From Schmidtea nova (Eukaryota): a stretch of 64,000 bases of DNA. The DNA lies in assembly GCA_044892505.1 (NCBI GenBank), contig CM097882.1, forward strand, positions 60,574,001-60,638,000, in the 5' to 3' direction. The notes beneath the pieces are model-generated. The model was not told the DNA's origin, searched no databases, and saw nothing but the letters and a program-made list of their open reading frames with translations. Positions 10,201 to 48,193 of this stretch are shown here, one piece after another (positions within the stretch are counted from its first letter, which is position 1; the number at the start of each line of letters is the position of its first letter). Made by a program: the position numbers and the translations under genes.

Positions 10201-13200
10201 AAGATAATTAACAGCCTCACAATATTTTAAAACGTTATCGCAGTTTTATAAAAAATTTTAATTATTTTACAATTGAAAATGAAACCCAGAATTTATTTTA
10301 CCTTTCCTGTCAAGGAACTAACAAAAAAGAAACCGACAACTGATGGATAACGAGATTGAAAGTGAGCAGTTGGTATTTCACTTTTGTCAACCTAAATTAT
10401 TAACAATATCCAAAGGAAATATAATATTTAAACCTTGTCAAAATGAGTTCCAACAATAAATATCGGGGCTGATGGAGCATGACATGTGATACTGTTTAAC
10501 CAGAAATCCAGACCTGCATGTTCAAATCCTTGCCTCACATTCCAGATCAGTAAATAAATAGCTCGTCCAGTTAGAAAAAACTGGTGAGTATTATAATAAA
10601 GGGTTTGGCCAGCAAAATCCCATAAGGAATATTGCAAGTTTATCGCTCCAGTTTTAGTTGACCAGCTATTGATATCGATGCCATCCGTTATGGCTTCTTC
10701 TGCTATTTGGGGGGCGCAGTAATTTTTGTTAGTTAATGCTCTCATTAGGCTAATAGAATATTCAAAGATTTTTATTAAATCTCACAAATCAACCTCGTTT
10801 TACCAGCGCCTCCTAAACCAACCAACATTAGCTTTGTTCTATAGCAAGTTTCACTTCCACTAACAAGTCTCAGTAAATAGGCAATCATATTTCTCATTCC
10901 TTGCTTGCGAATTTCGTATGGCGGTGTTTTCAAATTGTCACAATTTTGACAACTTAGAACTGAAATATTTCCTTTACAAAACGTTTTTATCAAACGATTA
11001 AAACAGACCTTCTAATGGTAAAGTACCAACGTAGCTGCTTAAAATATTTAAGTTCGCACAATCGTCAATTACAAATTTCTTTAAATTTTTTAAGCTTTGT
11101 ATTTCATCAGGGACAATCGAAAAGGCTTGATTTCCCATTATCAAGGTTTGCAGATTTGTACATTGCAATATCTCTACAGGGAATTCTAAAAAAAAGACAT
11201 TTTTATTTGACAGGTTTTATACTGAAAAGTATTTAGATAACAAAAGATTTATATGCCAATACTGTGCTTTAGGTCTTTATTTGGTTCCAAAATAATGCCT
11301 AGGAAACTGAAATTGTAATTTTTATACAAATCCATAAAAAGGAAAATTATGTTTTTTTGTAAAAGATAAGCTTATCAACTAGTAATAGACATTTCAATGT
11401 TTTATATGACTTTCGATGTAATTTCTAATTTTAGACGTGTTTCGAGCTTATTTAGATTTCTACAGCAGCATATATAAAACTCGATTGAGCCTGAAATCGA
11501 AAACATTGAATTTAAATTCAAACGCAAAAATATGACGACTTTACTAACAAGCTACATCAAATATCACAATTTATGTACCGATCTCATCAAATGTATATGA
11601 TTACATTCGATATCTTACAAACTAGGCGCTTACGCAACTAATTTTATTCGTTTATCACCAAATAAGTATGAAGACAGTTAAAATTCGTAATGGTGCTAGA
11701 AAAAAGGGTTCTTAAATATGTTTCTTTGATTTTATGATCTCTTGATTACCAGCAATAACTTCAGTCTCACTATAAACGGTCATTTTTATTTATTTTTATA
11801 ATATTGATTGATTGATATATAATTTGATGTATATAAATAAAATTCTAAATATAAATCTAATTTCTATAACCAATTATTAACATCTTTAATTTTGGCCACC
11901 TTTGATCTTTTTATCATAGATTTTTTCAAATTTCATTTTTTTTTTAAAACAATAGATCAAATTTTCTTTTCTTGAAACACAGATTTTCGTGGCACTACCT
12001 TTTCCAAATGTTACACCACTACGAACAATGGAAAAATTGAGTTGTGATTTTTCATGAAAAGATAAATAGACAGCAAATTGTAAATTATTTATAACCTCTA
12101 AATCGCGGAATACTTTCAAATAATAATGATTTAAACTCCTCGAATCTTGGACGATTTAAGACCCCCTCATTGGCAGTTGCATTTTCAAATAAAGTAAATA
12201 TTTCCTATAAAATTTAAAATAAAATAAAATATTTTTTATAAAAATTAAACTTCTTCTTGCAGCACGTATCCGTTAATATGAGTTTTGCTGCTGAAATCAC
12301 TCCATTCTTTAATAGACAAAACTGACCGTTTGTTAAATAAGTTATTAATTGATGGTCCACTTAATTTAAGAGTTAACAAGTTCTGAAATCGGATTATCAA
12401 AAATAAAATAAAATTTTATATGCTTAATTCCAGTTACTCTTAGTTGTGAGAAAGATTTTGGTAGACTGGACAATTTTGTACGTTCAACAGAGAGGTATTT
12501 CAACCATTTTAAGTTGCCAATATTTTCTGGCAGCACGTTGATTAATGTATTATTGAGTTCCAAGCTGTTGAGAAGCGAAAAATTGCATAGAATTTCTGGT
12601 ACTTCTCGAATCGGATTTCCGTCAAGACTAAGCTGTCTAAAATCATTAAACTACTATAAGCACTTTGGAAAATACAATTTTACGAAGAATTATATTTCGT
12701 AATAAAAATATTTTTAGTTTATTGTGGATTTTAATACATTTAGAAGTCGTTTAAAATAATTATGATCATAATAATTAATCATAATCATAATAATTATGAA
12801 GAAAACAAATGAGATTTTGCAAAATTAAGTAATTCGTAATATTGAAATTTTTTTTGAGACAACATTTGTTTTTTGCGGCATAAAAATGAACAAAAGAAAT
12901 GCGAGACAAATTTGTCCTACATAGTACTCAATGTAGTAAACTATTGAAATAAAAAAAACCAATTATTGAATATTTTGTTAAAACATGATTATAATACCGT
13001 GTTTTTCTTATTTGAAGCCCCGGGCTTGTATTTTAAATTTTCATGAAAACAATTAGAAATATGGATAGGGCTTATAAAATGAAAAGTTGGATACATGTCC
13101 ATGCATTAAAACATATTTTATACAGTAAAATAAAGAAACACAAACTCAAGACCCAATTGAATATTTTATTCATGACTCTCATCATCGCTGAATATTACCA

Positions 13201-16180
13201 AATCATCTTCTTCAGGAACATTAATTTCATTCGGCAATGATGGCACCAACGATAATGACTGTATAAGCATTGGACCGAGCCTTTCATGTTTATAAATATG
13301 GCTATTTTCGAAACTAATAGAAGGGTTTAAATATCCGGCTATTAAAGCATTATTAATTATTTGAGGTGTGATTTTATCCCATGATTTTTTAACCCAACAA
13401 GCAACTTCCTCGAACGTGGGCTTTTTAAAATTACCTCTAATATTCCGTTCAGCTCTTCGCTCGATATATTCGTTGATTTCATTTTTTAGTTGATCTTTAA
13501 ATGGTTTGTTCACACATATATCCAATGATTGAAGATAGCTAGTAGTTCCAGAGGGTATCATTATCTGATTAATATTGCGGATATTTAAATATTCTTTCAT
13601 TTTACTTGCTCTATGCGTACTCACCGAATCCCATATTAAGAGCTCCTTTTTATTGCCTCGTTTAATTATTGGCAGATTGATATCGATATATTTTTTCAAT
13701 ATTTCTACTGTACTCCAAGCCTTTTCAGAATTAACCATATAAATCCCGTTTCGCATGTTTATACTTTCATTTTTGCCTTTGTTGATAATAAAAGGTGGTA
13801 GTTTTTCGCCATTTAATCGAATTCCCAGAATGCAAGTTATCCGAAAACTTTCATATCCGGTAGAAGGAATTGTAATTGAATTGGTTCCCCGCCGTTCCAA
13901 AGTAGTTTGTGTATTTAGTCCATAATAAATTGCAGTTTCATCTACAGCTATACAAAAATTTGGGTCATAGGAAGACAAATCCATTAAGTCAACATAATTT
14001 TTAAAATTAATCGCCCTGCTTATCGTTTCAGCATCAGTTAATTTGAAAAGCGTTGTGGATCTTCTAATGCTTATTTCATGTCTCTTCATAAATCCATCCA
14101 ACCAATGACTTGAAGCACTAAAGTTTTGGATGCAACACTCTTTTGCTAATTCTACGGCATATTGAATCACATCATTTCTTTTCACAACAAGATGTGCAGA
14201 CCTTTTGTCTACGAACCAAGTAAAAATTTCATCCTCTAATTCTCCAATTACAGGCTTGCGACCTGCACCCACCCGTCGTTTTGCTTGTAAATCGAGACTT
14301 AAATTTGCGATACCGATTTCATTCTTCCACCTCCGCACCATTCTTATATCCAACCCATGCCTTTTACATACATTGCTCAAATTGCTATTTATGGCCTCTT
14401 CCAGTATAGATGTTTTATATGCATGTGTATAGGTCTTTCTTGGCATTGCTTTGGGTCCGGAAATTAAAAATTATAATATAATTTGTATTAATGATAATCT
14501 ATATTTTTAAATATTGCATAGGGCTTATATTGAGGATAGGGCTTTTATTGAAAAATTTACAAAATCAGTAGGAGGGCTACAAATACGGATAGGGCTTCAA
14601 ATAGGGGAAACACGGTATTAACTTTTTGAGGTCAAATTTTATTTTTGAAATTCAAACAGTCTAGTCGAAATTAATTGTCGAAAAAAAATTATAATTAACG
14701 GGATTGAATATTGAATGTTTTAATTTTGTTATTTTAAAGTTTAAATTAAAAATTCACTGGTTTTATAATTAAGTATGTCCAATCAAATAGTCGGCTCATT
14801 GGTGGACCTGTTACTAGGACTAGGTCTGTCAACATTGGACGGAAAATGATTAAATCGAAAAATATAATTAACAACAATGCACAGAAAATATGACAAGCCC
14901 TAACCCTAACCCACTTAATATTTTTAAAATTATTGTCTATTGAACTATTTAAAACTTTATTTATCTATTTTTGAGAATATTTCATTATTATATTTGAATT
15001 AGTTTGATAGTGTTTGTTATTATAATAATGTATTTTGCAAATCGAATATTTTTTTTCATTATTCTTAAAGAATTTTTATATTAAAACCTAACTAGTTTTG
15101 TATTGAAAAATTAATAATGAAAAATTATTTTTATAATAATAATTAATTTCCATTTCACTTTAAATTCAAATAGTCTAGTCGAAATTAATTATCCTTAAGT
15201 AATAAATGTATAACTGTGAAAATATTTTAGAATTAAATTATAACTAATTATAAATAAATAAATTATTTTTGTAATTATATTTTAATCCTATTTTAGTAGT
15301 TAAATAAATGTATAACTGTGAAAATATTTTAGAATTAAATTATAACTAATTATAAATAAATAAATTATTTTTGTAATTATATTTTAATCCTATTTTAGTA
15401 GTTCTTAATTTGAATATGGTATTTGATCTGTAAAATATTTATGATTCCAATGCGGCTCTGGGATTTAAAACACTGAAATATATTTTAATTTTCGTACATA
15501 AAGAAAATATTATAATTTCTCTAAAATGACTTAAACTTTTAAAATTTGTCTTTGAGTGAAATGATCTTTATGACTTATATCTACTCGAGGGTCTCTCAAA
15601 TGAGATTTCTGTGCGCTTTATGACATTGTGGTATGGTTATTGATATATCATACATGGATTGGAATTGCATACATTCACTATAGTAGACAATAATAGAGTG
15701 ACGACACCATTTAGTTTATACTTTACTGAAATTTCTCTATTTCTGCGAAAAAAAGATTTTAAAAAATTATACAAAACTTACTTTAACATTGTTTCTAAGA
15801 TAGCTCATGAATAATTCTACAACAATGACTATAAATGTTTGGGAGAATGGAGTGATTTATGATTTACTAATTCATCAGGAAGTCAATAGAGTAATATTAG
15901 GTTCATTAAGTTTGCATTGTCGTTGGCAATGAAATATTATTAGTTTTACAAAAAGTTCCTCTTTCAGTTCCTATACAGCTCCTTTTAGTAGTCTTACAAA
16001 AATTAGATTGAAGTTGGTAAGAAATATAATCATTGAAAAGCCGATGAATGGTTTTAAATAGGTAAAAGATAGATTCGCATATTTCACCTTTGAAATGTTA
16101 GAGAAACAAAACAATAAACAAGGTTTTGCATTTGAGGAAGACTTTTTGTGAGGGTCCAAGATGCTTGGCATTCGCGTGAA

Positions 16181-16238
<58 letters not shown>

Positions 16239-19200
16239 AACACTATTTTTAAAAATATATTTTTGCAAAATATTTTGACAACTCAACTGTCATCTTCAAT
16301 CAATAAACAAATTCAATAAAATAAAAATTGATCAAATTTATACGTTTTTTAGTGATTACATCATCGCATGTGCACAATCCAATAAAACTTTTATTAACAG
16401 TAGTAAAATTAATTAAAATATCTCAAGATGCAAGTAGACAAGCCCTGAGATAGTTTCAATGTTGCCCAGGCCGAAAAACCTTTTGGTGACCCAAACCCTC
16501 TATTTATTTTAAAATTTAAAAGAATTCACGTAAAAGATATTACGTAAGAGAGATATAAAATAACAAGAAGTAAAAATTATTTTAAAATGCCTTGCGCACT
16601 TTAGAATTGACAAATTCTTTAAAAAAATTTGAAAATCAATTTTTTGTGCATAATCACAATTTATATTTAGGATTGACAAAGACTTTAGTCGTTCCTGAGA
16701 TATTCTCGATCTGTTAAAATATTTCATTCCTTTCAAGGTACTACAGCTTCTTTATGCGCAAGCAACTGAAACAGGTAAACTCAAAAATATTCAAAAATAT
16801 TCTAATAATACCAAGCTATATCGATGATAACAGAACACACTCGAAGGTAGCTAAATATTGCTTAATAGAATAAAGTTCACCACACGCATGTGGTTATGTA
16901 ATTCTGCTTTTTCTACAGCAGCCTTTATACTAGATAAAGAGTTTGCCAAAATCTTTACTGCTTCGATTCTTGCAGACAATCTCATTGTCGATATGGAATG
17001 AAGTGAAAATTTTACAACTTTTTTCAAGATCTTTCATCTCTGTGGACTGCTGCTAAAGAAATTGTACATGTTTCCACACTGTCGACTGACCCTGTGATCT
17101 CCGCAACTAGAAAGAAATACAGTTAGAATTATGTTGTAGTAAAACTGCTGGTACACCATTGTATTGTCCTTCCATATTGGCGCCGTTATCATACGACTTT
17201 CCAATACAGAAATTAAAATCAATTTCTAATTATTTTAATAGTTCTAGAGTTCGTTCAGCGATTTCAAATACTTTCTTTGCGTAAGAGAGTCAGCAATAAT
17301 AAATCGCTCCTCAATCGAATATTTAATATCGCCAAACCAGTTTAAATACCGCATAACTCGACTGGTTTGTCCTTCATGTGAACAATAGGCTGTTGTGTTA
17401 ACGATTATGGAAAGATATTTAGAATTCTTAATCTCTTCAAGAATATTGTTATGGACAAAGGATCCACAAATTTCAATAAATTCATTCTGAATAACTGAGG
17501 ATAGAAAATGAACTTGTAAATGCTTTCTATTTCTTGTGATTTGCGAATTTTCGTGACATAATTGTATAATATAGGGTCGTATACAGTAGCGTAACTATGG
17601 GCCCGCAGGGCCCGCAACTGCGGGGGGGGGGGCAGGTAAAAGGGGCCCATTTTCAAACCTGAAAAAGAAAGGAATATCTTTACAAAATTGCCGTGGGCAG
17701 GGATACGATGGTGCCAGTGTAATGTCAGGTGTTTATGGAGGTGTTCAAAAACGTATTAGTGATGAACAACCAGCTGCGATATATATTCACTGCGCTGCAC
17801 ATAACCTTAATCTCGTTGTAAACGATGCTGTTAATGGAGTTCCGGAAGTTGCTAATTTTTTCACTGTTCTACAAGATGTATATTAATTTTTCGGGCTTAG
17901 CATTAACAGATGGGATATGCTTAGCAGTGTAACTGGAGAATCAACAGTGACATTAAAGAAACTTTACCCGACTCGATGAGCTGGACGAGCACAAAGTTTG
18001 CATGGTATGAAAATTAACTATTTTAATACCTTGAAGCTATTGACGACAATTAATCTAACATCGCGCAAAAAAGAAGAAAAGGATGAATCTTTAAGACTTA
18101 GGAAATCCATCGAACATTTTGAATTTGTTTTCATGCTCTTTATGTTTTCTAAAATACTTGGAGCAATAGACGTAGCCTCTAAATATCTACAAAACAAGAA
18201 CACAGATTTGTTTATTGCAACACAACATCTTGAAAGTGCATTGGAGACGACTACAAATTACAGACTGAATTTCGACGAAGCTAAAAAAGAAGCAGTTGCA
18301 GTTGCTTGCAAGTGGGGTGTTGAAGTAAAATATAAAGACAAAAGAGTTAGAAAAGTAAAGAAACATTTTGGTGAGTTAACCGATGATCAGAGATTGACTG
18401 ACCCAGAAAACACATTTCGAGTTAATATTTTTAACCGTGTGTTAGATATTGTGAACTCACAATTTAAAACTAGATTCCAAGGAATGCATGACATTGTAAG
18501 CATTTTTTCGGTACTTTTTCCGGCAACTCTTCTCGCAGAGGATGATAACAACATTGTCAAAGCTGCTAAGTCATTTCAGGAAAAATATCCCGGCGATTTC
18601 TCACCAGAATTTCCGCTTCAGTTGTTGTCTTTCAGAATGTCAATGAACAACGAAATAAAAAAAATTACAACAGTTAAGCAACTGGCAGACTTACTAATTG
18701 TGCATTACACCTCTATTTCATCTTCATATCTGGACGTGGTAACTGCTTTAATTATGTTTTTGACATTGCCAGTCACAGTGGCTACAGCAGAAAGGTCATT
18801 TTCGAAACTTAAGTTCATCAAAAATTATCTCCGCAATTCGATGGGTCAAGAACGCCTTAGTGGCTTAGCCTTGTTGAGCATTGAAGCCTCGCGGGCAAAA
18901 GTTATGGATGTTGACCAGCTCATTGACCGATTTGCAGAGATAAAGAGTCGTCGCAAGGACTTGTCTTAGAATACTTATCTGTACTGTACTAAATACAAAA
19001 CTGTTCTTGATTTATGATTTCGTAACATTGAATAAAACAATATTCAGTAACATTTCATTTATAACATTTAATCAATTTTAATGCAAATCGAAAACAATTT
19101 TTAGTTGTGGCATAAGATTACAAATTAATAATAAAATAAAATATCATAAATTAAAATCATTAAAATGTTTGCCTCAAAAGTGAGTCGATAATTTGAAACA

Positions 19201-26767: not shown

Positions 26768-29700
26768 TGTTACGGACGTACGTACAACGGTAATTATATA
26801 TGTTGATTGTTAATTTTTTGTAATGCAGTAACAGAATTGTAAAAATAATTAAATAGAAATAGTATTTAATTTTCAATTTTAAATAGATTTAAATACTATA
26901 ATAAAATTATCAATTAGTATAATAAATTTGATATAAATAATAAAGTTATAAATTGGCTTGACTGTAAATTTTGTATTTTAAGAATGATAGGAAATTAAAA
27001 TATAAAATATTTATTGAATGCTTGTGTATGAATATTTCATATTAATTATTAAATCATGCTTGCAAAAATATCCTCAAGTATAAAAAAGAAATTGTTTGAA
27101 TAATATCAGAAATTTGTGCTGTGTTTAAAAATATAGTTATTTTTTGAAATTATGGGTGTTCTTAATTTAAGAAACCAAAGAAATAATATGCCGACCATAA
27201 TGGCCAATTTTATCAAGGCACCAGAAAATCTCGAGATGAGAACCGATATCGAAGAATTTATCAAAGAAACAGAAAGATTTTTCGAATTAATGTCGATAGC
27301 TGAGGACTTCAAAGGAAGATTTGTTAAAGCTGTTTTATCAACGAATGCAATTAAGAAATCTAACTGACGAGAAACAAAATTTTAAAGAAAGAATGAGAGG
27401 AACCTTCTTAAGTCCAATGAATCTGATGAAAGATCAAAGTCAAGCGCTAGAATATAAACAAGGATATAATTCCACGGTTGATTTATGCGAAAAAATTGAG
27501 AAATCATTAAAACGAATTCTGAAATACAAATTTAATGAAGAAGAGCTACAAAATTTTCTCATATTCAATGAACTGGGAAACCAAGATTTGAAAAAATATT
27601 AGAGACTAAATGATTAATAATCAGTGGACGAAATGAAAAAGAGAATTAAAAACACGAAAAGTTAATTAAATAATTAAATCAAAACAGTGACTCAATGGCA
27701 GTTATGAGAACTGAAACAAGATACACGGATATGGTGAAAAAAGCTGTAAATATCCCAGCAAGACCAATGTCACAAAGATGCAACGACTAGAAAAAATACA
27801 TTTAACGAGCCAAGACAGATTCGAGAATATCCGAACAAGCAATATAATTTTAAAAATCAAGCAATTCAGAGAAATGAGAGATCAAATTTAAAATGCTGCG
27901 CATGTCATGAAGAGGGTCATAGGAGAGTAGAACGCCCGAATGTGAAATGTTATCATTGTCTCAAGTCAGGAAATTTCAAGCACCAGTGATTTCAATTCAG
28001 AAATAATTTCAGAGATGTTAGAGAAAATGAACAAGAAAACATACAAGGTAAAAAATACGCAAATGGATATGTTCCATCTCGATAGCAGGTGATAGGAACA
28101 CTGCAATAAGGATGAGTATATTGAATGGGGAATTGTATGATTATTGTCTGGATGATGATTGTTTGCATGTATTAAATTATAAAAAATATGAATATGTAAT
28201 TAATAGTGATAATTGTAAATGCGTCTGTATAATAATTTAATTGGGATTAGATGATTTTGGAGATGTTGTATAGTATGTTTGTAATATTAATTATGTAAAT
28301 TTTAATATCAATAATTACCATTTTGGTAAGACTATAGATGGAAATTTCTTTAAACAAGTACACAATATTTCGGCACAGCCTTTATCAAGTGTGTATTGAG
28401 AAAATTTGAGTCCAATTATTTGAAGCACTAATGTTATGTGAGTAAAACAAATTTAATAACGCATGAAATTTTAACATCAGGAAGATCTATTGTGATAAAT
28501 CCAAGGCACCAACCAGCCCATTTAATAGGAAATATTGATGAACAAATAAAAAAGATGGAAAAATTCGGAATTATAAAATAATGTAAGTCGCCATGGAACA
28601 CACCTTTAGTGTGTATAAAGAAAAAAAATAGAAACGATATAAGAATTTGTCTAGATTTTAGAGAGCTAAACAATGTCACAGGACGACCAATATTTTCAAT
28701 TCCGAATACAAATAAATTATTAGATACATTGAAAGATGCAAAATATTTCAACACAATTAATTTAGGGAATGTATACTACCAAGTGGAGCTCGATGAATAA
28801 TCAAGACTGAAGACAGCATTTTTTTACTAAAAACAGACAATATTGCTTTAATCGGATGCTATTTGGGATAGCAGCAGCTCCACAACATTTCAAAAATTAT
28901 TGAACATGGTATTAAGTGAACTTAATTGGTAAATAGCAAAAGTGTATTTGGACGACATTCTTATATTTTCAAAAGAATTAAAAGAACACTACGAAAATAT
29001 CGAAAAGGTTTTCAAGACAAAAGAACAAGCGGGACTAAAAGTAAGTACGTCTAAATGTCAATTTTTGAAAGAGGAAGTGAAGATCTTGGGACATATAATC
29101 AGCAAAGATGGCGTAAAAACCGAGGAAGAAAGAATTAAAGCAGTAAAAGAATTCGAAGGACCCATGCGTGTTAAAAACTTGAGGAAATTTTAGTGTTAAT
29201 CAATTACTAGAAAATTTATAAAATATTATGCAGAAGATTCAAAACATCTAGAAAAGTGGTGTGGAAGCCAAATGAAAAGGTTGATTTGGACAACCGAATG
29301 TAAAAGTGCATTTTCGAAACTTAAAGATAAGCTGATTAATGCACCAATATTAAAATTTCCTGATTCTTCAAAAACTGTCATAATGGATAAGGAGGCTAGC
29401 TTCGATCGTATTGTCTCCCTTTTATCACGAACAGATAAATCTGGAAATGGAAATGTTATTACTTATGGATCACATTCCATGTCGAAACATGAGGTGGCCC
29501 ATTGCAAAACAAGAAAAGAACTTTTAGCAATCTATTATTTCCAAAACCATTTTAAACATTGTTTTTATAGGAAAAGATTTATATTACGCACGGACCGTAA
29601 AGCCATAACGTATTTGATGAAGACAAAGAAAGTTATCACTACTTACTTCCAGACATTAATCAATTATTTAAAAAGTTTGGAAATAGAATTTCAATTTAGG

Positions 29701-29897
29701 AAAGCAGAAGAACATTGCAATGCAGATGCATTGTCAAGAAGTAAATGTATGATGTGCGTTCAATGTCAAACCATCTATGTTAATCTAAAGACGAAGCTTT
29801 TGGCAATAATGACAGAAAACCCAGAACAAGAATGGCAAATGAATTCAAAAGAAAAAACTGAAATTTTAATTAAAAACCAATATGATAATGAATTCAG
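26768..29897 (+). mobile_element. Degenerate Ty3/gypsy retrotransposon: 5' LTR, gag, RT, RNase H; truncated before the integrase core, no 3' LTR
   Basis: Putative LTR from TGTTACGG (26768) to about 27188, then a decayed PBS tgccgacc. Gag FIKAPENLE...EEFIKETERFFEL with CCHC relics; RT SPWNTPLVCIKKK...IRICLDFRELN and YLDDILIFS; RNase H (D)ASFDRI...TRKELLAIYYF...RTDRKAI...NADALSR. Clearly related to the 48790-53501 element. Confidence 0.88.
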
Positions 29898-30533
29898 ATA
29901 AGGTGTGTTTGGTGGGGCATTATGGTTGTTGTACGTGTCTGGCTGTAAAGGATTGCCTGTATACCAAAACGCTAATCCATCTCCAAATAATTTGCTCCTG
30001 TCTCCGTGAACTTTGAAATTCAAATGAATTTCACAATCACGCATTACATTTGGATATTCATTGAATTTGTTATTTGGAAATGGTATATGAAACGATGAGA
30101 AATTGTAAATTTTCTGTTGTTCTTGATTCTTGACCCAAATGCCACCAGTTATGTCAAGTGTATAGCCGCCATAGTCCCAATATTGCCGAGCGAGATGAGT
30201 AACTGCTAAAGAGGACATAGCGAAAACCAGGACAATGTAACGAGAATGTTGATATCGCAAAAAGTACATGATGCAATAGCTAATGATTGGTGGAATAAAC
30301 AGATGCATTATTTGATGGTCAAAACAAAAGAATGCCAAAGTAAATCCTCCTAAAAATGCAAACCGATGCCTTTGTTCAGCACTGATATTTTTGATGCTGT
30401 ATTTCGTCTGGAACTGCCAACCCATCAATGAGGCAGCAAACATGCAGAGTACAAAATTAAATTGATCAACGTGTATTCTAAATTGTGATGATAGTGGCTC
30501 AAAAAATCTAACTCTGGCACAAAATTTCAACAT
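29775..30533 (-). CDS. Chimeric 252-aa ORF: MBOAT1/2-type lysophospholipid acyltransferase N-terminus fused to VIP36/LMAN2-type L-lectin fragments
   Basis: Codons 1-130 (30533-30144: FEPLS...VDQFNFVLC...RH...GFTLAFFCF...ISYCIM...YWDYGGYTLDITG) follow the MBOAT1/2 N-terminus. Then come GIW, a 24-codon insert, NEYPNVMRDCEIHLNFKVHGDRSKLFGDGLAFWYTGNPLQP and DTYNNHN..PY, which follow VIP36/LMAN2. The last about 40 codons are antisense gypsy pol. Coding status is unproven. Confidence 0.8.
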   Translation of the reverse strand: MLKFCARVRFFEPLSSQFRIHVDQFNFVLCMFAASLMGWQFQTKYSIKNISAEQRHRFAFLGGFTLAFFCFDHQIMHLFIPPIISYCIMYFLRYQHSRYIVLVFAMSSLAVTHLARQYWDYGGYTLDITGGIWVKNQEQQKIYNFSSFHIPFPNNKFNEYPNVMRDCEIHLNFKVHGDRSKLFGDGLAFWYTGNPLQPDTYNNHNAPPNTPYLNSLSYWFLIKISVFSFEFICHSCSGFSVIIAKSFVFRLT

Positions 30534-30803
30534 TTTAATAATATATATTTAAAAATTAAAATATTCAAAAGAATGTATTTAAACTCCAAAAAAAATAATA
30601 CAATTTTTAAATCTTCAAAAAAAATAATTATCCTGTAATATTAAAACACCAAGTACTTAACTTTTTTAAGGAATTTATAAAACAAAATTATATAATTCAA
30701 AAATGTTAAATCTCTAAATCATAAACAGAGAATTTAGTCCATAAGATATAGAAAATTTTTTTGAAAAGAATTTTCTGGTTAAATTACATCAATTTTTTTT
30801 AAC

Positions 30804-32610
30804 TTGAATTTTCTTAGATAATTGAGCAAATATATCATGATAAGTTCGATTTTCAATATACATGATTTCAAGACCAATCTGAAGCTTCAATTATTAGTGC
30901 TTTGATTGTTTTTGGAGTTAACTCGTCATTAAAATGAACTGTTGAAAATCTAACATCACTGAATAAAGTGAAAGTTTGAGGCCATGTTCCTTTAATATTT
31001 TGGGAAAAACTTCAATATCGACCTTTTAGACCACTACAGTGTGGTAATTATTTATTGCTCATTTAAACGTGTAAAGTAACAAAAGAACAATATTAACAGC
31101 TGAAAAAGTAGAGTATTAAAAATTCTATTGTCATAATCCGTCGTCCTTAATGTCTCTCTTTTGTTTATTTCGAATCATTTGGATATAGAATAATTTAGGC
31201 TTAATGTGTGATCCAAATAAAAACACAGCTGCAGAATAAAAATAATAATATCCCTCTTAATAGCAGTGATAGTTAATTAAAAATATTCCTACAATTTTGA
31301 GGCTAATCTTTATTATGTGATTATTGAAATTTTAAATTGAGAAAGATTAAAATTTTATTTATTTTCATTTCAGATCATACTATTTTTTCCAGTTTGACAT
31401 AAATTTTGGGAATAATACTTGAAAAGACAGTACCTAAAATTAGTGTAGAACTAGAGAAAAATTTATTCTATTGTCTGAAAAAATGAAAATAAATGAAATC
31501 GAACAAAGATCAAAGGTAAAGAAGATTACCGAATTTAAGAATTAAAATCTTTTCTCTTGTTCACGTGTAACTTGTTGTTTACGATTATATTTACTTTCAT
31601 TTTTTCAGATAATAAATCTGTATATTTGTATTGAATTGAAAAACATTAAAAATATAGTCTGAAATAATGAAAATAAACGAAATCATAAAACAAGAATCAA
31701 ATTTTTTATAAAAATATTTAAAAATTTTAAATATGATTGGAATTATTATCTGATTTAAAGCATAATTATACAGTAAAATATTTTAAAATTTTAGATTCAT
31801 ATCGTACTTATTTCATAATAAAAAAAAATTATATTTTCAATCATTTGTTAATTTTCTTTTCCTAAATATTATATCTTTCAATTAATTTAATTTTGTAAAT
31901 CAAAGTTTTTGGAACTGTTTTTTTCATGTTTTAAAAATCGAAATACCAAAAAGTATTATTAAGCTGAAAAACTTGGATCTATTGTCTAAAAGGACGAAAA
32001 TAAACAAAATTATAATAAAAGATGAAAAGTTATTTTTAATATTTATTACATTTTCATTATGTTTATCAAATTGCTGAAACTTAAGGCCATTGCACTTTCA
32101 TCTCACTTTTTACAAGATAAGAGACTGAATTTAAAAGAATAAAAAAGCCAGGATTTATTTATATTCTATCAAGTATTGCTGATAAAAGTTTTTAATGGTA
32201 AATACCTTTTTTACACTTTGTAGTATAAAAATATTTTGAAGGTAAATACTGTATAAAGTTTATAAATATTTATCTTCAAAAATTGTTATTAAAAATAAAT
32301 AATATTAAATCCAGTAAAATGTCTTCTTTTGTAAATTTTTAGTTTCGAAAGGGAAAAATTAAAAAAGAAATTTAAACATTTTAAAGAGAAAATGTGAAAA
32401 GAAAATTCTGTAAAACAATTTTCGAACATATGCCTTTAAAATAATTAAAAATAAAATATTCATCAAGTCTTACTGAAAATGAGGCAGTGAAGTTTTTAAT
32501 AATTGTAAAAACATCTAAAATAAAATCTCCTTGAAAGAAATATTTGGCTTCTCCTTCTGTCATTTGATATGGAGTCTCATTCATTGGATGCATATCTCGA
32601 AGATAGTTTC
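30804..32610 (-). CDS. Candidate exons of an unidentified minus-strand gene, possibly the ROCO N-terminus (32610-32474, 31022-30960, 30878-30804)
   Basis: AG/GT-bounded, phase-compatible open exons: NYLRDMHPMNETPYQMTEGEAKYFFQGDFILDVFTIIKNFTASFS | VDIEVFPKILKEHGLKLSLYS | IGLEIMYIENRTYHDIFAQLSKKIQ. The first has a GTAAGA donor; the other two are less certain. Confidence 0.45.
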
Positions 32611-38714: not shown

Positions 38715-41700
38715 TGTTATATATTTAATAATGATTTGTTTTAATATTCTATATTAAGACATTCATCATTATTCAAATTGAATAAAAACTTTTAGTATTA
38801 ATTGCTTTTTATCAGTTCAATTTTATTCAATTTGAATCATCATGAATCTGAAAATCTTTCAAAAAGCTCTTCCGGAAAATGCCTCTGAAAATGAATTTCT
38901 CCAATGGAAGCGTGTGTTCGAGACATACATCAGAAGACTGGTATTATCAGACAACGACAGTTTAGAAGCTCTTCTCTAGTTAGTGCCATAAAACATTTTC
39001 ATCACCTTGGAACAGTGCAGCGATTACAAAGAAGCAATACAAAAGTTAATAGCAAGGCATGTCAAGAGGTCCTCATCAACTCTCATGCGGTTCAAGATCA
39101 GAACAATGATGCAAGAGAACAATGAAACAATCGAAGACTTTACAACAAGACTCACAGTTGCAGTTCACAAGTGTCCAACTCCAGCTCTCTCTGCAGAAGA
39201 ACATCATAATTTAATGATAAGCGACGCATTAGTCTTTGGAATTAGCTCAAATGAAATTCGACGAAGACTCTTGGAGTTAGAAAACGTCAGCCTCCAAGTC
39301 ATGGTTACACGTGCGATGTCTCTAGAATCTGCAATAAAAGATTCTAACTATCTTCGACAGGATCAGCAGTCAGAGCCAACTGTAGACAGATCAGTCTATA
39401 CAACATCAGCAATGACTACTAGCTGCCAATGGTGTGGTAAATCTAAACATTCGCGATCTAGTTGCCCAGCAAGAAACTCTGTTTGCAACAAATGTCAGAA
39501 GAAAGGTCACTGGAGTCCGGTATGTTTAGCTAAAAAGATAGCGTCTATCTCTACTGAAGAAACAAACATGGACGTTGACGGACCGATTCAGAGTTGCTCT
39601 ATTTCTAGATTAGCAACAATCAATGCCCAAAATTCTTTAGTTGAGGCTTTTCTCGATGGAAACTCAGTTCTAACATTAATTGATACGGGATCAGATTTGT
39701 CCTTTGTGTCAGAAGAATTCCTCAATAGTAAGAATCTAACCTTTAATCACAAAGAAGTAAAACAGGTTCTCCTTGCGAATAAATCGATATCCTCAACTTT
39801 AGGTAACTACTATGGAAAGTTAATGTTGGCAAACAAGGTCTACGAGGCACATTTCCAAGTCTCCAAATCACTGGTCACTAAAGTGATAATTGGAATGGAC
39901 ATCCTAAAAAGACACTCGAGAATTAATCTAGAACTTTGTGGCAATAGACATCCGATCACACTATCTCTAGCTCTCAAGACAATGACATGTGACACGTATC
40001 CGCTCTTGCCAGGAGTTGACATAAGTAAAATCAAACCAATCGCTATGCCATCACGACGGTCCTCACAAAATTCAGAGTTTATCAGCCAAGAAATATCGAG
40101 ACTCCTCTCCGACAGAATCATTCAAGAAAGCCAAAGTCCTTGGCAAGCACAGTGCTTCGCCATCAACTAGAACAGCAAACAACGGCTCGTAATAGATTAC
40201 TCAAATACAATCAATCGATACACTAATCTTGACTCAAACCCAATGCCTAGAATTGACGATCTGCTCTTTAAAATAGCAAAGAACACAATTTTCAGTAAGG
40301 TAGGCCTCAAGTCAGCATATCATCAGGTCCAAATTCAACCATCAGACTATCAACTAACTGCTTTCGAAGCACAGGGTAAATTATATGAATTTACCAAACT
40401 ACCTTTCGGTTGCACCAACGCAGTCCCAATTTTTCAGAGAATCATCGACAAATTCATCCAAGACAACAATCTTCAGTCAACGTTTACTTATCTCGATGAC
40501 ATAATAATTGGTGGTAAAAATAAAGAAGAGCACGATCAAAACCTTAAAGAATTTCTAAAGGCCTCTAAAGTGAAAAATCTACAAATAAACGAAAGCAAAA
40601 GTAAGTTTTCTACAACGTCTATATCATTTCTAGGACACGTAATTGAAAACCAATCAATAAGGCCAGATCCGGACCGTTTCAAGGCTCTCATGGACCTTCC
40701 AATTCCAGCGTCTACAAAAGAAATGGATCGTTTAATAGGTTTTTTTGCATATTACGCAAAATGGATCCCACGATGCTCAGAATACACGAGAATACTAACT
40801 GATTCTCGTAAAGAACTCACGTCAAGCAACACACTGCCAAATGAATGCATCGAAACAATACATTTACTGAAGACCAAATTACAAACTGCTTCACTACATT
40901 CCCCAACTCAAGATCAACCTTTAGATATTGAAACCGATGCATCCGACTATGCATTGGGCGGAGTATTGAGTTAGAACGGCCGACCGATTGCATTCTTTTC
41001 TCGTTTACTCTCAAAGTCAGAAAGAAATCACTCCATCATTGAAAAAGAGGCCGCGGCAATCGTCGAATGTACCCAAAAATGGCGTAGCCTCTTACATTCG
41101 GTACCTTTCTTTAATATTCTTACAGATCAGAAGTCAGTTTCGTTAATATTCAATCGGCAAAAATTATCCAAAACTAAGAATGAAAAGATCGCACGATGGA
41201 GAATTGAATTATCAGATCTGAGATTCAACATAAAATACAAACCAGGTCCCGACAACATACCAGCTGACGCATTATCTAGATGTAGTTCAATAATTAGTTC
41301 TAACTCTTTAAAGTTACTTCATGGAAGTTTATGTCATCCCGGTATCACTCGTATGTATCATTACTGCCGAGCGAAGAATCTACCATACTCCATCCAAGAC
41401 ATTAAAAACGTTATTGGAAACTGTGAAACATGCAAACAGATAAAACCAAGATATTTCAAACCTCCAAGTAGAAGCCTAATCTCATCAATGAAACCCTGGG
41501 ATAGAATTTCAATCGACTTTGTGGGACCTCTACAAAGCACAACATCTAATCGTTTCTTGCTCGTCGTTGTCGACGAATATTCCAGGTACCCTTTTGCCTT
41601 TCCTTGTGCTAACGTCGATTCTGACACCGTAATAAAACACATGTTAAGTTTATTTACCTTGTTTGGTTCACCTTCGCCCGTACATAGCGACAGAGGAGCA

Positions 41701-42462
41701 CAATTCGAAAGCAGACAATTCAATGACTTTTTAATTAAACACGGAGTGGCGAAGACACGTACAACGCCTTATCAACCTCAAGGTAACGGTCAATGCGAAA
41801 GAATGAATGGAATTCTATTGAAAACGATAAACTTAGCCCTAAAGGAAAACAATATGAGCAAGGAGCATTGGGAAAAAGTATTGGACGTATCCCTTTCATC
41901 AATAAGATCACTGCTGTGCGTCTCTACTAATTCGACACCTCACGGTCGAATGTTTAAATTTGATCGAGCGTCCGTAATTGGATGTGATTTACCAGAATTT
42001 CTACGAAATACTGATCAAAACATCCTACTAAAACGCCACATTCGCTATAAAAATGATCCACTTGTCGATGAAGTCAAACTGATCGAGACAATATCGCCAT
42101 ACTATGCAAGAGTACAACACAGAGATGGAAGGACAGACACAGTATCGACGAGTCACCTTGAACCATGTTCAAATAGCTCAGCTGATACGACCTGTACAGA
42201 GCTTGAAAGTGGGAAAGACACCCAAGAAACGTTCGGGTATTCCAAGACTGCATTTGAAGACAGTTTGTCGTCACAGAATCAGCAGGAAGCGAATCGACTA
42301 CCCGATCTTGAAGACAAGTAAAAGTACCGTCACGATTCTTAACCTAGAGGGGAAGAATGTTATATATTTAATAATGATTTGTTTTAATATTCTATATTAA
42401 GACATTCATCATTATTCAAATTGAATAAAAACTTTAAGTATTAGTTGCTTTTTATCAGTTCA
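38715..42462 (+). mobile_element. Complete compact Ty3/gypsy (Mag-like) LTR retrotransposon, 3748 bp, with 105-bp LTRs and 5-bp TSD
   Basis: LTRs 38715-38819 and 42358-42462 (TG...CA, 2 mismatches in 105 bp), TSD ctacc (38710-38714, 42463-42467), and polypurine tract (PPT) agaggggaagaa (42346-42357). Confidence 0.97.
38842..42321 (+). pseudogene. Single-frame gag-pol (gag with twin CCHC, protease, RT, RNase H, integrase) with four premature stops and no frameshift
   Basis: ATG at 38842 and all track ORFs (39007, 40243, 41353) share one frame. Motifs: CQWCGKSKHSRSSCPARNSVCNKCQKKGHWSPVC, LIDTGS, YLDDIII, ETDASDYALGGVL, H-x4-HPGITRM...CETC, ISIDFVGPL, HSDRGAQF, NGQCER. Stops: TAG 38977, TAA 38989, TAG 40168, TAG 40972. 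Confidence 0.93.
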
Positions 42463-46977: not shown

Positions 46978-47308
46978 TATTAAATTAACTATTATAAAAA
47001 TTTAAAAATTTAAAAATGAATAAATATTATTTAGGTTTGTTAAATGTTAATTTTTATAAACTAAAATATTTTTAAAATTAAAAAAGTTTTCTAAAAATTT
47101 AAATGGGTCATTTAGGCCAATGAATAAAATACTCGTTTGTTGGATAATTTTAATAAATAATTTACAAAATTATATGTTTACTAATTTCCTTTGCTATTAT
47201 ATCGAAAAACTTAATTTTTATCCAATGAAAATATAGCTAATTCAATATTAAAAATATTTTTATTCAATTTAAAAGAAAAAATTTATTAACAATTAAAACT
47301 TTTTAAAT

Positions 47309-48193
47309 ATGTCACTAAGCGATTATCCAATTATTGAAGTTATTCAACAATCTGAGAAGGGGTCAACGAGTCTTGCTGTAAATAATTCCCCTTTCAACCA
47401 AGATCATCCTTTAGTTATTATTAAAACTATTAAAAAAGAACAAACTGCGTATTTTATCTTTAATAATAAGATCACAGATATTCCAACAGAAGCGCAATTC
47501 TATAATCTAATAAAAGATGAAAATATTTCTCCAAAGTTTTTACGACATTTTGTAGATACTGACCACGTACTAGTTATCGAGTACTTGGGTGGTAGATGGC
47601 TAGACCTTTTAGATTTTACACTTACAAAATTACCAGAAGAATCAGTTGTCAAAAAAATCTTTATTAAAATTGTAAAAGCGCTCTACATATTGGCTAGGAA
47701 GAATATTTATCATCTCGATATCAAACCAGAAAATATTATGATAAATCAAACGACTTTAGAAATAAAAATTATTGACTATGAAACTGCAATTCAGAAAAGA
47801 AGTTTATTTTCAGTTACCAGTAGTCAAATAGTCGGAACAGAACTTTATATGGGACCAGAACGGTTTTCTGGTAAATATTATGATGTCAGAAAAAGTATTG
47901 TATATACTTTAGGAGTCGTATTGTACACATGCATTGAAAGAGTAGATGCATCCGACGAAGGTTTCAGATTTAAAACATCATCAGAATTAGCTAAAATGTT
48001 TATATTGGAATGCATTGAAACCAATCCGAATAAAAGACCGAATTTTAAATATTTATTAGATCACCAATATTTTTCAAATGTTCATGGTTTGAAATCTACA
48101 GTGAATTTCCCTTCAAATTATACGAGATATTCAAAGAAAAATATTTTTTTGCGTGCATTTTTATTTGCGTGTGCATGTATTTTGCGGTTTTAA
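47309..48193 (+). CDS. Intronless divergent Ser/Thr protein kinase, PIM-like (294 aa)
   Basis: VIIK (subdomain II Lys), TE (alphaC Glu), LVIEY hinge, HLDIKPENIMI, IKIIDYE, GTELYMGPE, SIVYTLGVVLY (no Asp in subdomain IX, as in PIM kinases), KRP. Confidence 0.85.
   Translation: MSLSDYPIIEVIQQSEKGSTSLAVNNSPFNQDHPLVIIKTIKKEQTAYFIFNNKITDIPTEAQFYNLIKDENISPKFLRHFVDTDHVLVIEYLGGRWLDLLDFTLTKLPEESVVKKIFIKIVKALYILARKNIYHLDIKPENIMINQTTLEIKIIDYETAIQKRSLFSVTSSQIVGTELYMGPERFSGKYYDVRKSIVYTLGVVLYTCIERVDASDEGFRFKTSSELAKMFILECIETNPNKRPNFKYLLDHQYFSNVHGLKSTVNFPSNYTRYSKKNIFLRAFLFACACILRF

What the first reader, a model, noticed from the sequence alone, without database searches (positions are those of the whole stretch)
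29775..30533. In-frame chimera of two unrelated host genes (MBOAT acyltransferase and VIP36/LMAN2 lectin) joined to a broken gypsy pol
Seen in the sequence: one 252-codon ORF. It has 130 intron-free codons of an MBOAT1/2-like N-terminus from the ATG, switches at ...ACT GGT|GGC ATT TGG to lectin sequence, carries a 72-nt in-frame insert (30134-30063), and resumes the lectin core (RDCEIHLNFKVHG...FGDGLAFWYT). It then jumps PLQP|DTYNN (29939/29938), omitting the GPVFG...IFL segment of VIP36-type lectins, and runs into antisense gypsy pol at about 29897, exactly where that element is truncated before integrase. Established: LTR retrotransposons can capture spliced host mRNAs by RT template switching at microhomologies. 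Inference: this is a multi-template retro-chimera, and the in-frame omission looks like a skipped exon, which points to an RNA origin. It lies on the same strand as, and about 270 bp downstream of, a candidate host exon, so it could be transcribed as a membrane-anchored lectin fragment.
Basis: partly seen in the sequence, partly recalled or inferred. Interest (0 to 1): 0.78.

Follow-up and report, generated by a model that had tools for sequence, protein, structure and literature searches.

The report
Retrotransposon swapping host-derived membrane leaders
The odd chimeric reading frame is the leftover end-piece (solo LTR) of a Gypsy retrotransposon family whose end-pieces carry the fronts of at least twelve different host genes, fused in frame to the element's first protein, where they likely act as interchangeable signals that send that protein into the ER membrane.

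Summary
The ORF is real but is not a lone chimera of the neighbouring gypsy. It lies in a 1,131-bp solo LTR (29908-31038, minus strand, 5-bp duplication) with 23 near-full copies. It stacks spliced MBOAT exons 1-3, 89 nt of a third membrane-protein gene, and a VIP36 core; all three parents were found. Full-length members are Gypsy elements with 93-99.6% identical interiors but unrelated LTR cargo: 12 host fronts, among them NOMO1, acid phosphatase, PCMT, tetraspanin and epoxide hydrolase. In 82 of 86 PBS-bearing loci the cargo reads in frame through the PBS into ORF1. Copies with 100% identical LTRs encode host leader, sequon-rich linker, transmembrane segment, ubiquitin fold ending GG, then Gag. 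Best reading (0.62): host signal or anchor segments are selected as swappable ER leaders that keep Gag cytosolic. Against: no amino-acid constraint on the MBOAT cargo, some shared stops and frameshifts, no RNA data. Closest precedents: IAP's single host signal peptide; LTR retrocopies replacing internal ORFs. The scan noted gene-bearing LTRs in giant elements of this genome, but nothing resembling this family.

The parts
29908..31038 (-). Solo LTR, 1,131 bp, ends TGTAGTGG...CCACCAAA
   Evidence: copies share exactly this span; in L102 the same LTR type is followed by the PBS and family interior
31039..31043 (-). 5-bp target-site duplication, upstream copy (CACAC)
29903..29907 (-). 5-bp target-site duplication, downstream copy (CACAC)
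30563..31038 (-). Constant 5' part of the LTR (U3 by inference), shared with LTRs that carry other cargo
30462..30562 (-). MBOAT exon 1 with short 5' UTR and ATG at 30533
   Evidence: parent G000:C1:468563814-468563914, followed by a GT-AG intron of 135 bp
30316..30461 (-). MBOAT exon 2
   Evidence: parent C1:468564050-468564195, followed by a GT-AG intron of 14,843 bp
30145..30315 (-). MBOAT exon 3, ending exactly at the parent's splice donor
   Evidence: whole MBOAT segment 94.7% identical to the parent over 418 nt
30056..30144 (-). Remnant of gene X (single-exon protein with N-terminal hydrophobic leader and C-terminal TM); its hydrophobic core is replaced by the MBOAT front
   Evidence: parent L155 (C2:217793408); precursor X+lectin LTRs L064, L065, L066, L068
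29939..30055 (-). VIP36/LMAN2-type lectin exon 3
   Evidence: parent L151 (C2:263.33 Mb), 92.4% identity
29918..29938 (-). Lectin exon 4 remnant, entered 51 nt into the exon after an AG
29908..29917 (-). LTR terminus; followed by AA and the PBS in full-length members
29775..30533 (-). The flagged ORF: 208 codons inside the LTR plus 44 codons of read-through into the flank
29200..29898 (+). RNase H region of an unrelated, truncated gypsy pol beside the insertion (bystander)

Best explanation
The window sequence is a solo LTR of a Gypsy family whose LTRs hold spliced fronts of host genes in frame with ORF1, and these fronts likely serve as swappable ER-targeting leaders for a protein predicted to span the membrane once with Gag left in the cytosol. 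Shown: LTR structure, spliced origin for four parents, layering of older under newer cargo, frame continuity through the PBS, and the order leader, linker, hydrophobic segment, ubiquitin fold with GG, Gag. Inferred: (1) reverse transcriptase jumps onto a host mRNA while copying the 5' end of the element RNA, so the host piece lands in both LTRs of the next copy; some junctions look spliced instead. (2) ORF1 starts at the host ATG in the LTR. (3) Only leaders that leave the chain in the ER lumen let the internal TM segment act as stop-transfer; without one it would likely flip Gag into the lumen. (4) A host deubiquitinase would cut after GG and free Gag whatever the leader, which makes leader swapping tolerable. 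The MBOAT-X-lectin version is an older subfamily now seen almost only as solo LTRs.
For: Frame: at least 90 open codons upstream of the PBS in the ORF1 frame in 71 of 86 loci, against 0 and 1 in the other frames; cargo motif in frame in 82 of 86; all 12 cargo types in frame, (1/3)^12 = 2e-6 if captures are independent. Leaders: 11 of 12 cargo types have a 17-residue hydropathy window above 1.4; the VIP36 leader passes only with a 12-residue window. ORF1 of 921 and 917 aa has just two such peaks, the leader and one internal segment. Sequons between PBS and TM: 15 observed, 7.8 in shuffles, P 0.003; 2 after the TM. Ubiquitin/SUMO fold. The MBOAT cargo stops at the TM4-TM5 loop, on the lumenal side in MBOAT7 (PMC10267149 passages). 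The claudin-like cargo keeps only the first TM. Other elements with the same LTR end and PBS also have a hydrophobic stretch at the LTR end reading through the PBS, in another frame: 7 of 12 loci examined. Interiors 98.9% identical between NOMO and PCMT elements.
Against: MBOAT cargo shows no amino-acid constraint: pN/pS 1.41 for substitutions shared by 2 or more loci, 0.96 for 5 or more, 0.72 private; one stop is shared by 5 or more loci. A 2-nt deletion is shared by 3 loci and another by 2, so broken leaders spread, presumably in trans. A crude indel-frame test was not significant (9 of 23 shared ORF indels in frame against 25 of 132 in U3, P 0.052; against private ORF indels P 0.11). Two PBS-bearing LTRs of 238 and 254 bp lack cargo. 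There is an in-frame ATG at the PBS itself. Only 10 of 30 hand-picked relatives elsewhere have a TM-like segment. Hydropathy is not a signal-peptide predictor, and no background rate was measured. Parents were located for 5 of 12 cargo types. No RNA or protein evidence.
Confidence: 0.62

Rival explanations
1. Supply bias. Particles form on the ER through the internal TM segment, so ER-bound mRNAs are the ones co-packaged and captured. Selection asks only for an in-frame start codon and an open frame, not for the signal itself.
For: pN/pS near 1 in the MBOAT cargo. Ty1 RNA is routed to the ER by SRP without a recognisable signal (PMC3945221 passages). Junctions cluster at AT-rich start-codon contexts, such as a 12-nt identity spanning the ATG of gene X and VIP36.
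Against: Does not explain why multi-pass cargo is cut at lumenal points (MBOAT TM4-TM5 loop; claudin-like cargo with one TM), why each newer layer brings its own hydrophobic front, or the native-looking hydrophobic leaders of related elements.
Confidence: 0.2
2. Disguise or rewiring. Swapping the RNA's 5' part for host sequence lets new subfamilies escape piRNA silencing or borrow host translation signals; protein topology is secondary.
For: Cargo turns over within about 1% interior divergence. Planarian LTR elements are under PIWI control (PMC8532177 passages). The IAP signal region is itself a silencing target (10.1101/2022.06.22.497016 passages).
Against: The 5.9-kb interior stays 93-99.6% identical and targetable; disguise predicts neither frame nor hydrophobic fronts. 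It may explain why swaps spread, alongside the best explanation.
Confidence: 0.12
3. One reading: a single chimeric retrogene made by the adjacent gypsy and expressed as a membrane-anchored lectin fragment.
For: This copy keeps an open 208-codon frame, as do a few others; spliced origin is confirmed.
Against: 23 dispersed loci with their own duplications; carrier is another family; most copies have broken frames and pN/pS is near 1; neither domain is complete.
Confidence: 0.03
4. DNA-level capture by a non-autonomous DNA transposon (Pack type, Ginger type).
For: Short imperfect terminal inverted repeat, 5-bp duplication, non-canonical AA end.
Against: Introns lost in four parents; the same units flank PBS-gag-pol interiors as direct repeats.
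Confidence: 0.01

Closest known systems
LTR-mediated retroposition in animals (Tan et al. 2016, PMC5131818; passages seen)
   Same: Spliced host mRNA pieces joined to LTR elements, short shared sequence at junctions, multi-parent chimeras, further rounds of copying.
   Different: There the retrocopy replaces internal ORFs and the product is non-autonomous. Here cargo sits in both LTRs, gag-pol stays intact in young copies, and cargo is the in-frame start of ORF1, replaced again and again.
Mouse IAP elements (10.1101/2022.06.22.497016, passages seen; Fehrmann 2003 and Ribet 2008 seen only as citations)
   Same: A host-derived ER signal in frame upstream of Gag, tied to retrotransposition.
   Different: One historical gain in the 5' UTR of a retrovirus-derived element. 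Here at least 12 host fronts lie inside the LTR of a Gypsy family, with an internal TM segment and a ubiquitin-GG module before Gag.
Yeast Ty1 SRP/ER route (PMC3945221; passages seen)
   Same: ER targeting as a step of LTR-retrotransposon particle assembly.
   Different: Ty1 Gag has no recognisable signal or TM segment and nothing captured.
Burro/GYPSM1 giant Gypsy elements of planarians (PMC6431247; passages of section 7 seen)
   Same: Gypsy elements with extra host-like domains, including a ubiquitin/SUMO-like one.
   Different: Interior up to 25 kb, Gag at the N-terminus, env-like region. Here the interior is 5.8-5.9 kb and Gag follows leader, TM and ubiquitin fold.
Ubiquitin insertions as processing signals in pestivirus polyproteins (recalled, no call)
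   Same: A ubiquitin moiety ending GG frees the downstream protein whatever precedes it.
   Different: RNA virus; cleavage here is predicted only.

Membership tests
Ty3/Gypsy LTR retrotransposon (carrier family) | Two direct LTRs and a 4-6 bp target-site duplication | tested here: met
   10 of 12 fetched elements show a full-length LTR pair at 96-100% (6 at 100%); 5-bp duplications; for L058
Ty3/Gypsy LTR retrotransposon (carrier family) | pol order protease, RT, RNase H, integrase | tested here: met
   RVT_1, RT_RNaseH, Integrase_H2C2, rve in that order; protease by a DTG motif only, no Pfam hit
Ty3/Gypsy LTR retrotransposon (carrier family) | Gag capsid fold | tested here: inconclusive
   confident model (pLDDT 90); the ten best rows are PEG10, Arc and Ty3 capsids, but E is 0.2 or worse; DUF7041 below cut-off
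Ty3/Gypsy LTR retrotransposon (carrier family) | TG...CA LTR termini | tested here: not met
   ends are TG...AA (CACYAAA), fixed by the duplications
Ty3/Gypsy LTR retrotransposon (carrier family) | tRNA primer-binding site after the 5' LTR and purine tract before the 3' LTR | tested here: inconclusive
   TGG-starting motif 2 nt after the LTR in 86 of 90 loci and a short G-rich tract before 3' LTRs; the tRNA-Leu label is recalled and a search for that tRNA end found nothing
LTR-mediated retrocopy (Tan 2016 type) | Parent introns absent | tested here: met
   MBOAT 2 introns, VIP36 4 across lectin LTRs, epoxide hydrolase 1 and claudin-like 1
LTR-mediated retrocopy (Tan 2016 type) | Short shared sequence at junctions | tested here: met
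   12 nt at the VIP36/X start, about 5-7 nt at X/lectin, only 2 nt at MBOAT/X (which also fits splicing); no randomisation run
LTR-mediated retrocopy (Tan 2016 type) | Retrocopy replaces internal ORFs, element non-autonomous | tested here: not met
   cargo in the LTRs; ORF1 and pol uninterrupted in 7 of 12 fetched elements
IAP-type ER-targeted Gag | Host-derived hydrophobic leader in frame upstream of Gag | tested here: met
IAP-type ER-targeted Gag | ER targeting and its need for transposition shown | not testable with these tools
   bench work
Burro giant Gypsy | Interior of 20 kb or more with N-terminal Gag and env-like region | tested here: not met
   interior 5,811-5,921 bp
Functional MBOAT or L-type lectin gene | Complete catalytic or sugar-binding domain under purifying selection | tested here: not met
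   no MBOAT Pfam hit, lectin 36 of 230 positions; pN/pS near 1

The most novel reading that the evidence does not exclude
A recently active Gypsy family has outsourced the start of its ORF1. It keeps harvesting start codons plus signal peptides or membrane anchors from host secretory-pathway mRNAs into its LTR, selects those that give a type-I membrane precursor, and frees Gag by a built-in ubiquitin-GG cut. The LTR works as an exchangeable leader cassette, the solo LTRs are a layered record of successive captures, and the same design may extend to a wider ubiquitin-GG-Gag clade.
Probability: 0.55. Interest if true: 0.9.

Novelty: new variant of a known kind. Interest (0 to 1): 0.82.

Why it matters
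Host-gene capture by LTR elements is usually described as an accident that disables the carrier. Here captures recur at one place, stay in frame, and are carried by the youngest intact copies, so capture looks like part of how the family evolves. The family gives a natural series of at least 12 leaders on a near-identical backbone, which makes a long-standing question directly testable: whether and how ER targeting of Gag serves env-less retrotransposons, known so far from IAP and Ty1. It also scatters hundreds of promoter-linked, spliced host-gene fronts through the genome, which can be mistaken for gene families or new chimeric genes in annotation.

Tried and rejected
Capture by the adjacent gypsy: rejected. 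Skipped exon: rejected. DNA transposon: rejected. Read-through splicing from an element inside the MBOAT gene: no family DNA in the 59 kb spanning the parent; a lost allele cannot be excluded. Purifying selection on the MBOAT cargo: none. Indel-frame test: not significant, and compensating indel pairs were not merged. Parents of the RNF103-like and unknown cargo: not found among 20 candidate stretches; parents of NOMO1, phosphatase, PCMT, tetraspanin and LRR cargo were not searched. Primer tRNA: no match. Sequencing runs: 4 holders from 1 study, no RNA holder listed; their short contigs tile the unit, but none bridges a junction with 31 letters on both sides among those shown, so they are not used as evidence. 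Atlas: RNF103 0.89, a lead only; unknown cargo B-lectin 0.84 with low recognition, not accepted. Relatives elsewhere with host-like N-termini (histone H2A, 5'-nucleotidase and others): their DNA context was not obtained (one search found no locus), so they may be gene-model artefacts. One identity figure (lectin exon 3, 28%) is an off-register slip; the BLAST value is used. Literature: ten searches listed no paper whose title or abstract start describes in-LTR, in-frame leader swapping; most subscription papers and Repbase are not covered, and no supplements were read.

Full report
Observation. The minus strand holds a 252-codon ORF at 30533-29775. Pfam finds a lectin piece (E 3e-7, profile positions 55-90 of 230) and no MBOAT domain. 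The N-terminus aligns at 33% to an intact paralogue that is an MBOAT by Pfam and by solved structures. The window lies in a 1.25-Gb animal genome; earlier scan notes call it probably a planarian, which I did not test.

It is a repeat with sharp ends. The MBOAT piece gave 35 matches from 39 candidates, 21 of them near full length at 85-100%. A DNA search gave 23 loci carrying most of 29908-31038, and a further set sharing only the first 500 bp; 40 of 606 candidates were scored. Copies begin TGTAGTGG and end CCACYAAA or a near variant. Of the 23 loci, 15 had both ends detected and 12 of these have a perfect 5-bp duplication; the window's is CACAC. The neighbouring plus-strand gypsy pol is a different family and does not resume after the insertion.

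The repeat is a solo LTR. In longer copies the end is followed by AA and a TGG-starting motif; a pattern of end plus motif has 89 exact matches and a pattern from the start of the interior has 102. Of 90 interior-pattern loci examined, 86 have the motif. Full-length elements have two LTRs, 5-bp duplications, a 5.8-5.9 kb interior and pol in the order RT, RNase H, integrase. One decayed MBOAT-type LTR (L102/L130) is still attached to the motif and an interior 85-88% identical to the family. Of 12 elements fetched, 6 have 100% identical LTRs and 7 have uninterrupted ORF1 and pol; these 12 were chosen as likely young.

Parents of the window cargo. MBOAT: C1:468.56-468.62 Mb, exons 1-3 at 94.7% over 418 nt, GT-AG introns of 135 and 14,843 bp absent from the cargo, later exons present in the gene. 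Gene X: L155, a 206-codon frame with hydrophobic ends and no Pfam hit, supplies 30144-30056. VIP36-type lectin: L151, with introns at the points where lectin LTRs are joined (Pfam E 3e-55 for the longer lectin cargo). Intermediates exist: lectin-only LTRs (L067, L069, L119) and X+lectin LTRs (L064, L065, L066, L068). The order follows: lectin, then X replacing the lectin front at a 12-nt identity spanning both start codons, then MBOAT replacing the hydrophobic core of X. The MBOAT/X junction falls at the exon-3 donor and after an AG, so it fits splicing as well as a 2-nt template switch. The 51 lost nt start at the exon-4 boundary and end at AG; they were absent in all 18 of 23 loci where the site could be read.

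The family swaps cargo. Among the 86 loci: NOMO1 35, histidine phosphatase 17, PCMT 16, RNF103-like 3, tetraspanin 3, unknown 3, claudin-like 2, MBOAT 1, VIP36 1, epoxide hydrolase 1, unassigned 4. With gene X and an LRR protein that makes 12 types. Pfam passes cut-off for NOMO1, PCMT, His_Phos_2 and EHN, and is weak for LRR, tetraspanin and claudin; RNF103 rests on an atlas lead and recall. Epoxide-hydrolase and claudin-like parents or close paralogues each show a 46-nt GT-AG intron missing from the cargo. Tails of older cargo persist under newer fronts: claudin tail under epoxide hydrolase, LRR tail under RNF103 and long PCMT, lectin bits under tetraspanin. Interiors are 92.8-99.6% identical across 11 elements; NOMO against PCMT is 98.9%.

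Cargo is the start of ORF1. At least 90 codons are open upstream in the ORF1 frame in 71 of 86 loci, against 0 and 1 in the other frames. The copies are related, so the fair count is 12 of 12 types. Cargo was partly found by translating this frame, but the 4 unassigned loci were checked: one RNF103 LTR shifted by 1 nt, one unknown-type LTR with an extra A, and two short LTRs without cargo. In young copies ORF1 is 917-921 aa: host front (130-135 aa), translated primer site, 321-aa N/S/Q-rich linker, one hydrophobic segment, a domain ending LYGG, then Gag. That domain folds as ubiquitin/SUMO. The next 177 aa fold confidently and rank retro-type capsids first, though at E 0.2 or worse. Sequons number 15 before the TM against 7.8 in shuffles (P 0.003) and 2 after. 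Of 30 relatives picked from the 150 listed in a profile-library search, 29 have an [LVIFR]xGG motif before Gag and 10 a TM-like segment.

Mechanism. Established knowledge: sequence copied first from the primer site ends up in both LTRs; signal plus stop-transfer gives type-I topology; deubiquitinases cut after GG. Inference: the polymerase leaves the element RNA a few bases after priming, copies a host mRNA towards its start, and returns at an AT-rich match, replacing the old leader. The internal TM then needs an upstream signal for Gag to stay cytosolic. This fits the hydrophobic fronts (11 of 12 by a 17-residue window; VIP36 by a 12-residue window), the MBOAT cut at the TM4-TM5 loop, which MBOAT7 places on the lumenal side (PMC10267149, passages), and the single TM kept from the claudin-like gene. 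Other elements with the same LTR end show hydrophobic leaders crossing the primer site in another frame (7 of 12 loci), one with leader, linker and TM in one frame (L128).

Against. Substitutions in the MBOAT cargo are not constrained. One stop and two small deletions are shared between loci. The indel test is not significant. Cargo-less LTRs exist, an ATG sits in the primer site, no background rate of hydrophobic fronts was measured, and there are no RNA data. A supply bias from ER-bound mRNAs, or a benefit in escaping silencing, remain open.

Comparison. Tan et al. (PMC5131818, passages) describe retrocopies replacing internal ORFs. IAP gained one host-derived ER signal in its UTR (10.1101/2022.06.22.497016, passages). 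Ty1 uses SRP without a signal (PMC3945221, passages). Burro has a ubiquitin-like domain inside a giant polyprotein (PMC6431247, passages). PMC8532177, PMC12789967 and PMC12801592 (passages) held nothing on this. Ten searches listed no description of this arrangement; coverage is limited and supplements were not read. Earlier scan notes report gene-bearing LTRs in giant elements of this genome, but sequence and word look-ups for this family were blank.

Verdict. The structure is shown: about 0.95 that this is a solo LTR with spliced, layered, in-frame host cargo. The leader function is inferred: about 0.62. New variant of a known kind; interest 0.82.

Noticed in passing
L280 (G000:C1:329229200-329239100), LTRs at 263-1062 and 6969-7875: One element has a phosphatase-type 5' LTR and an unknown-type 3' LTR, sharing only the first 327 nt at 92%, yet flanked by matching ATATA. 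It could be a cargo swap caught in one insertion, a conversion, or a chance match in AT-rich DNA.
   Followed up: partly
L130:3928-9702: A different Gypsy element with 99.8% identical 597-bp LTRs, inserted in a decayed family member, carries a nuclear-receptor zinc-finger fragment in its LTR (Pfam zf-C4, E 1e-8) and a ubiquitin-like GG motif before Gag.
   Followed up: partly
L103, L114, L115, L122, L123, L127, L128: Other elements with the same LTR end and primer site have hydrophobic leaders reading through the primer site in a different frame; L128 continues into a linker and a TM segment.
   Followed up: partly
proteins P0006, P0008, P0017, P0019, P0125: Distant ubiquitin-GG-Gag relatives begin with host-like pieces: histone H2A, 5'-nucleotidase and CNOT1/Rrp44 by Pfam; Arp8-like and Hsp90-like by recall. 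Three have a translated primer-site motif behind the piece. They may be gene-model artefacts.
   Followed up: partly
window 30868-31038, minus strand: The first 170 nt of the LTR read as a short open frame in some copies (L091), origin unknown; possibly an old captured piece.
   Followed up: no
L281, claudin-like LTR: Between the claudin-like front and tail lies a segment that I recall as resembling ZSWIM-family proteins; no call tested this label.
   Followed up: no
window 38992-42321 plus strand; 47297-48193; 13166-14470; 17980-18969: A further gypsy with gag, protease, RT and integrase broken by stops; a protein-kinase frame; Tc5/pogo-like and hAT transposase remnants.
   Followed up: no
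G000:C1:496.05-496.42 Mb and C3:157.1-158.0 Mb: Clusters of repeated weak matches to the epoxide-hydrolase cargo (58-59%) and to the unknown cargo (about 26%), perhaps tandem gene arrays.
   Followed up: no
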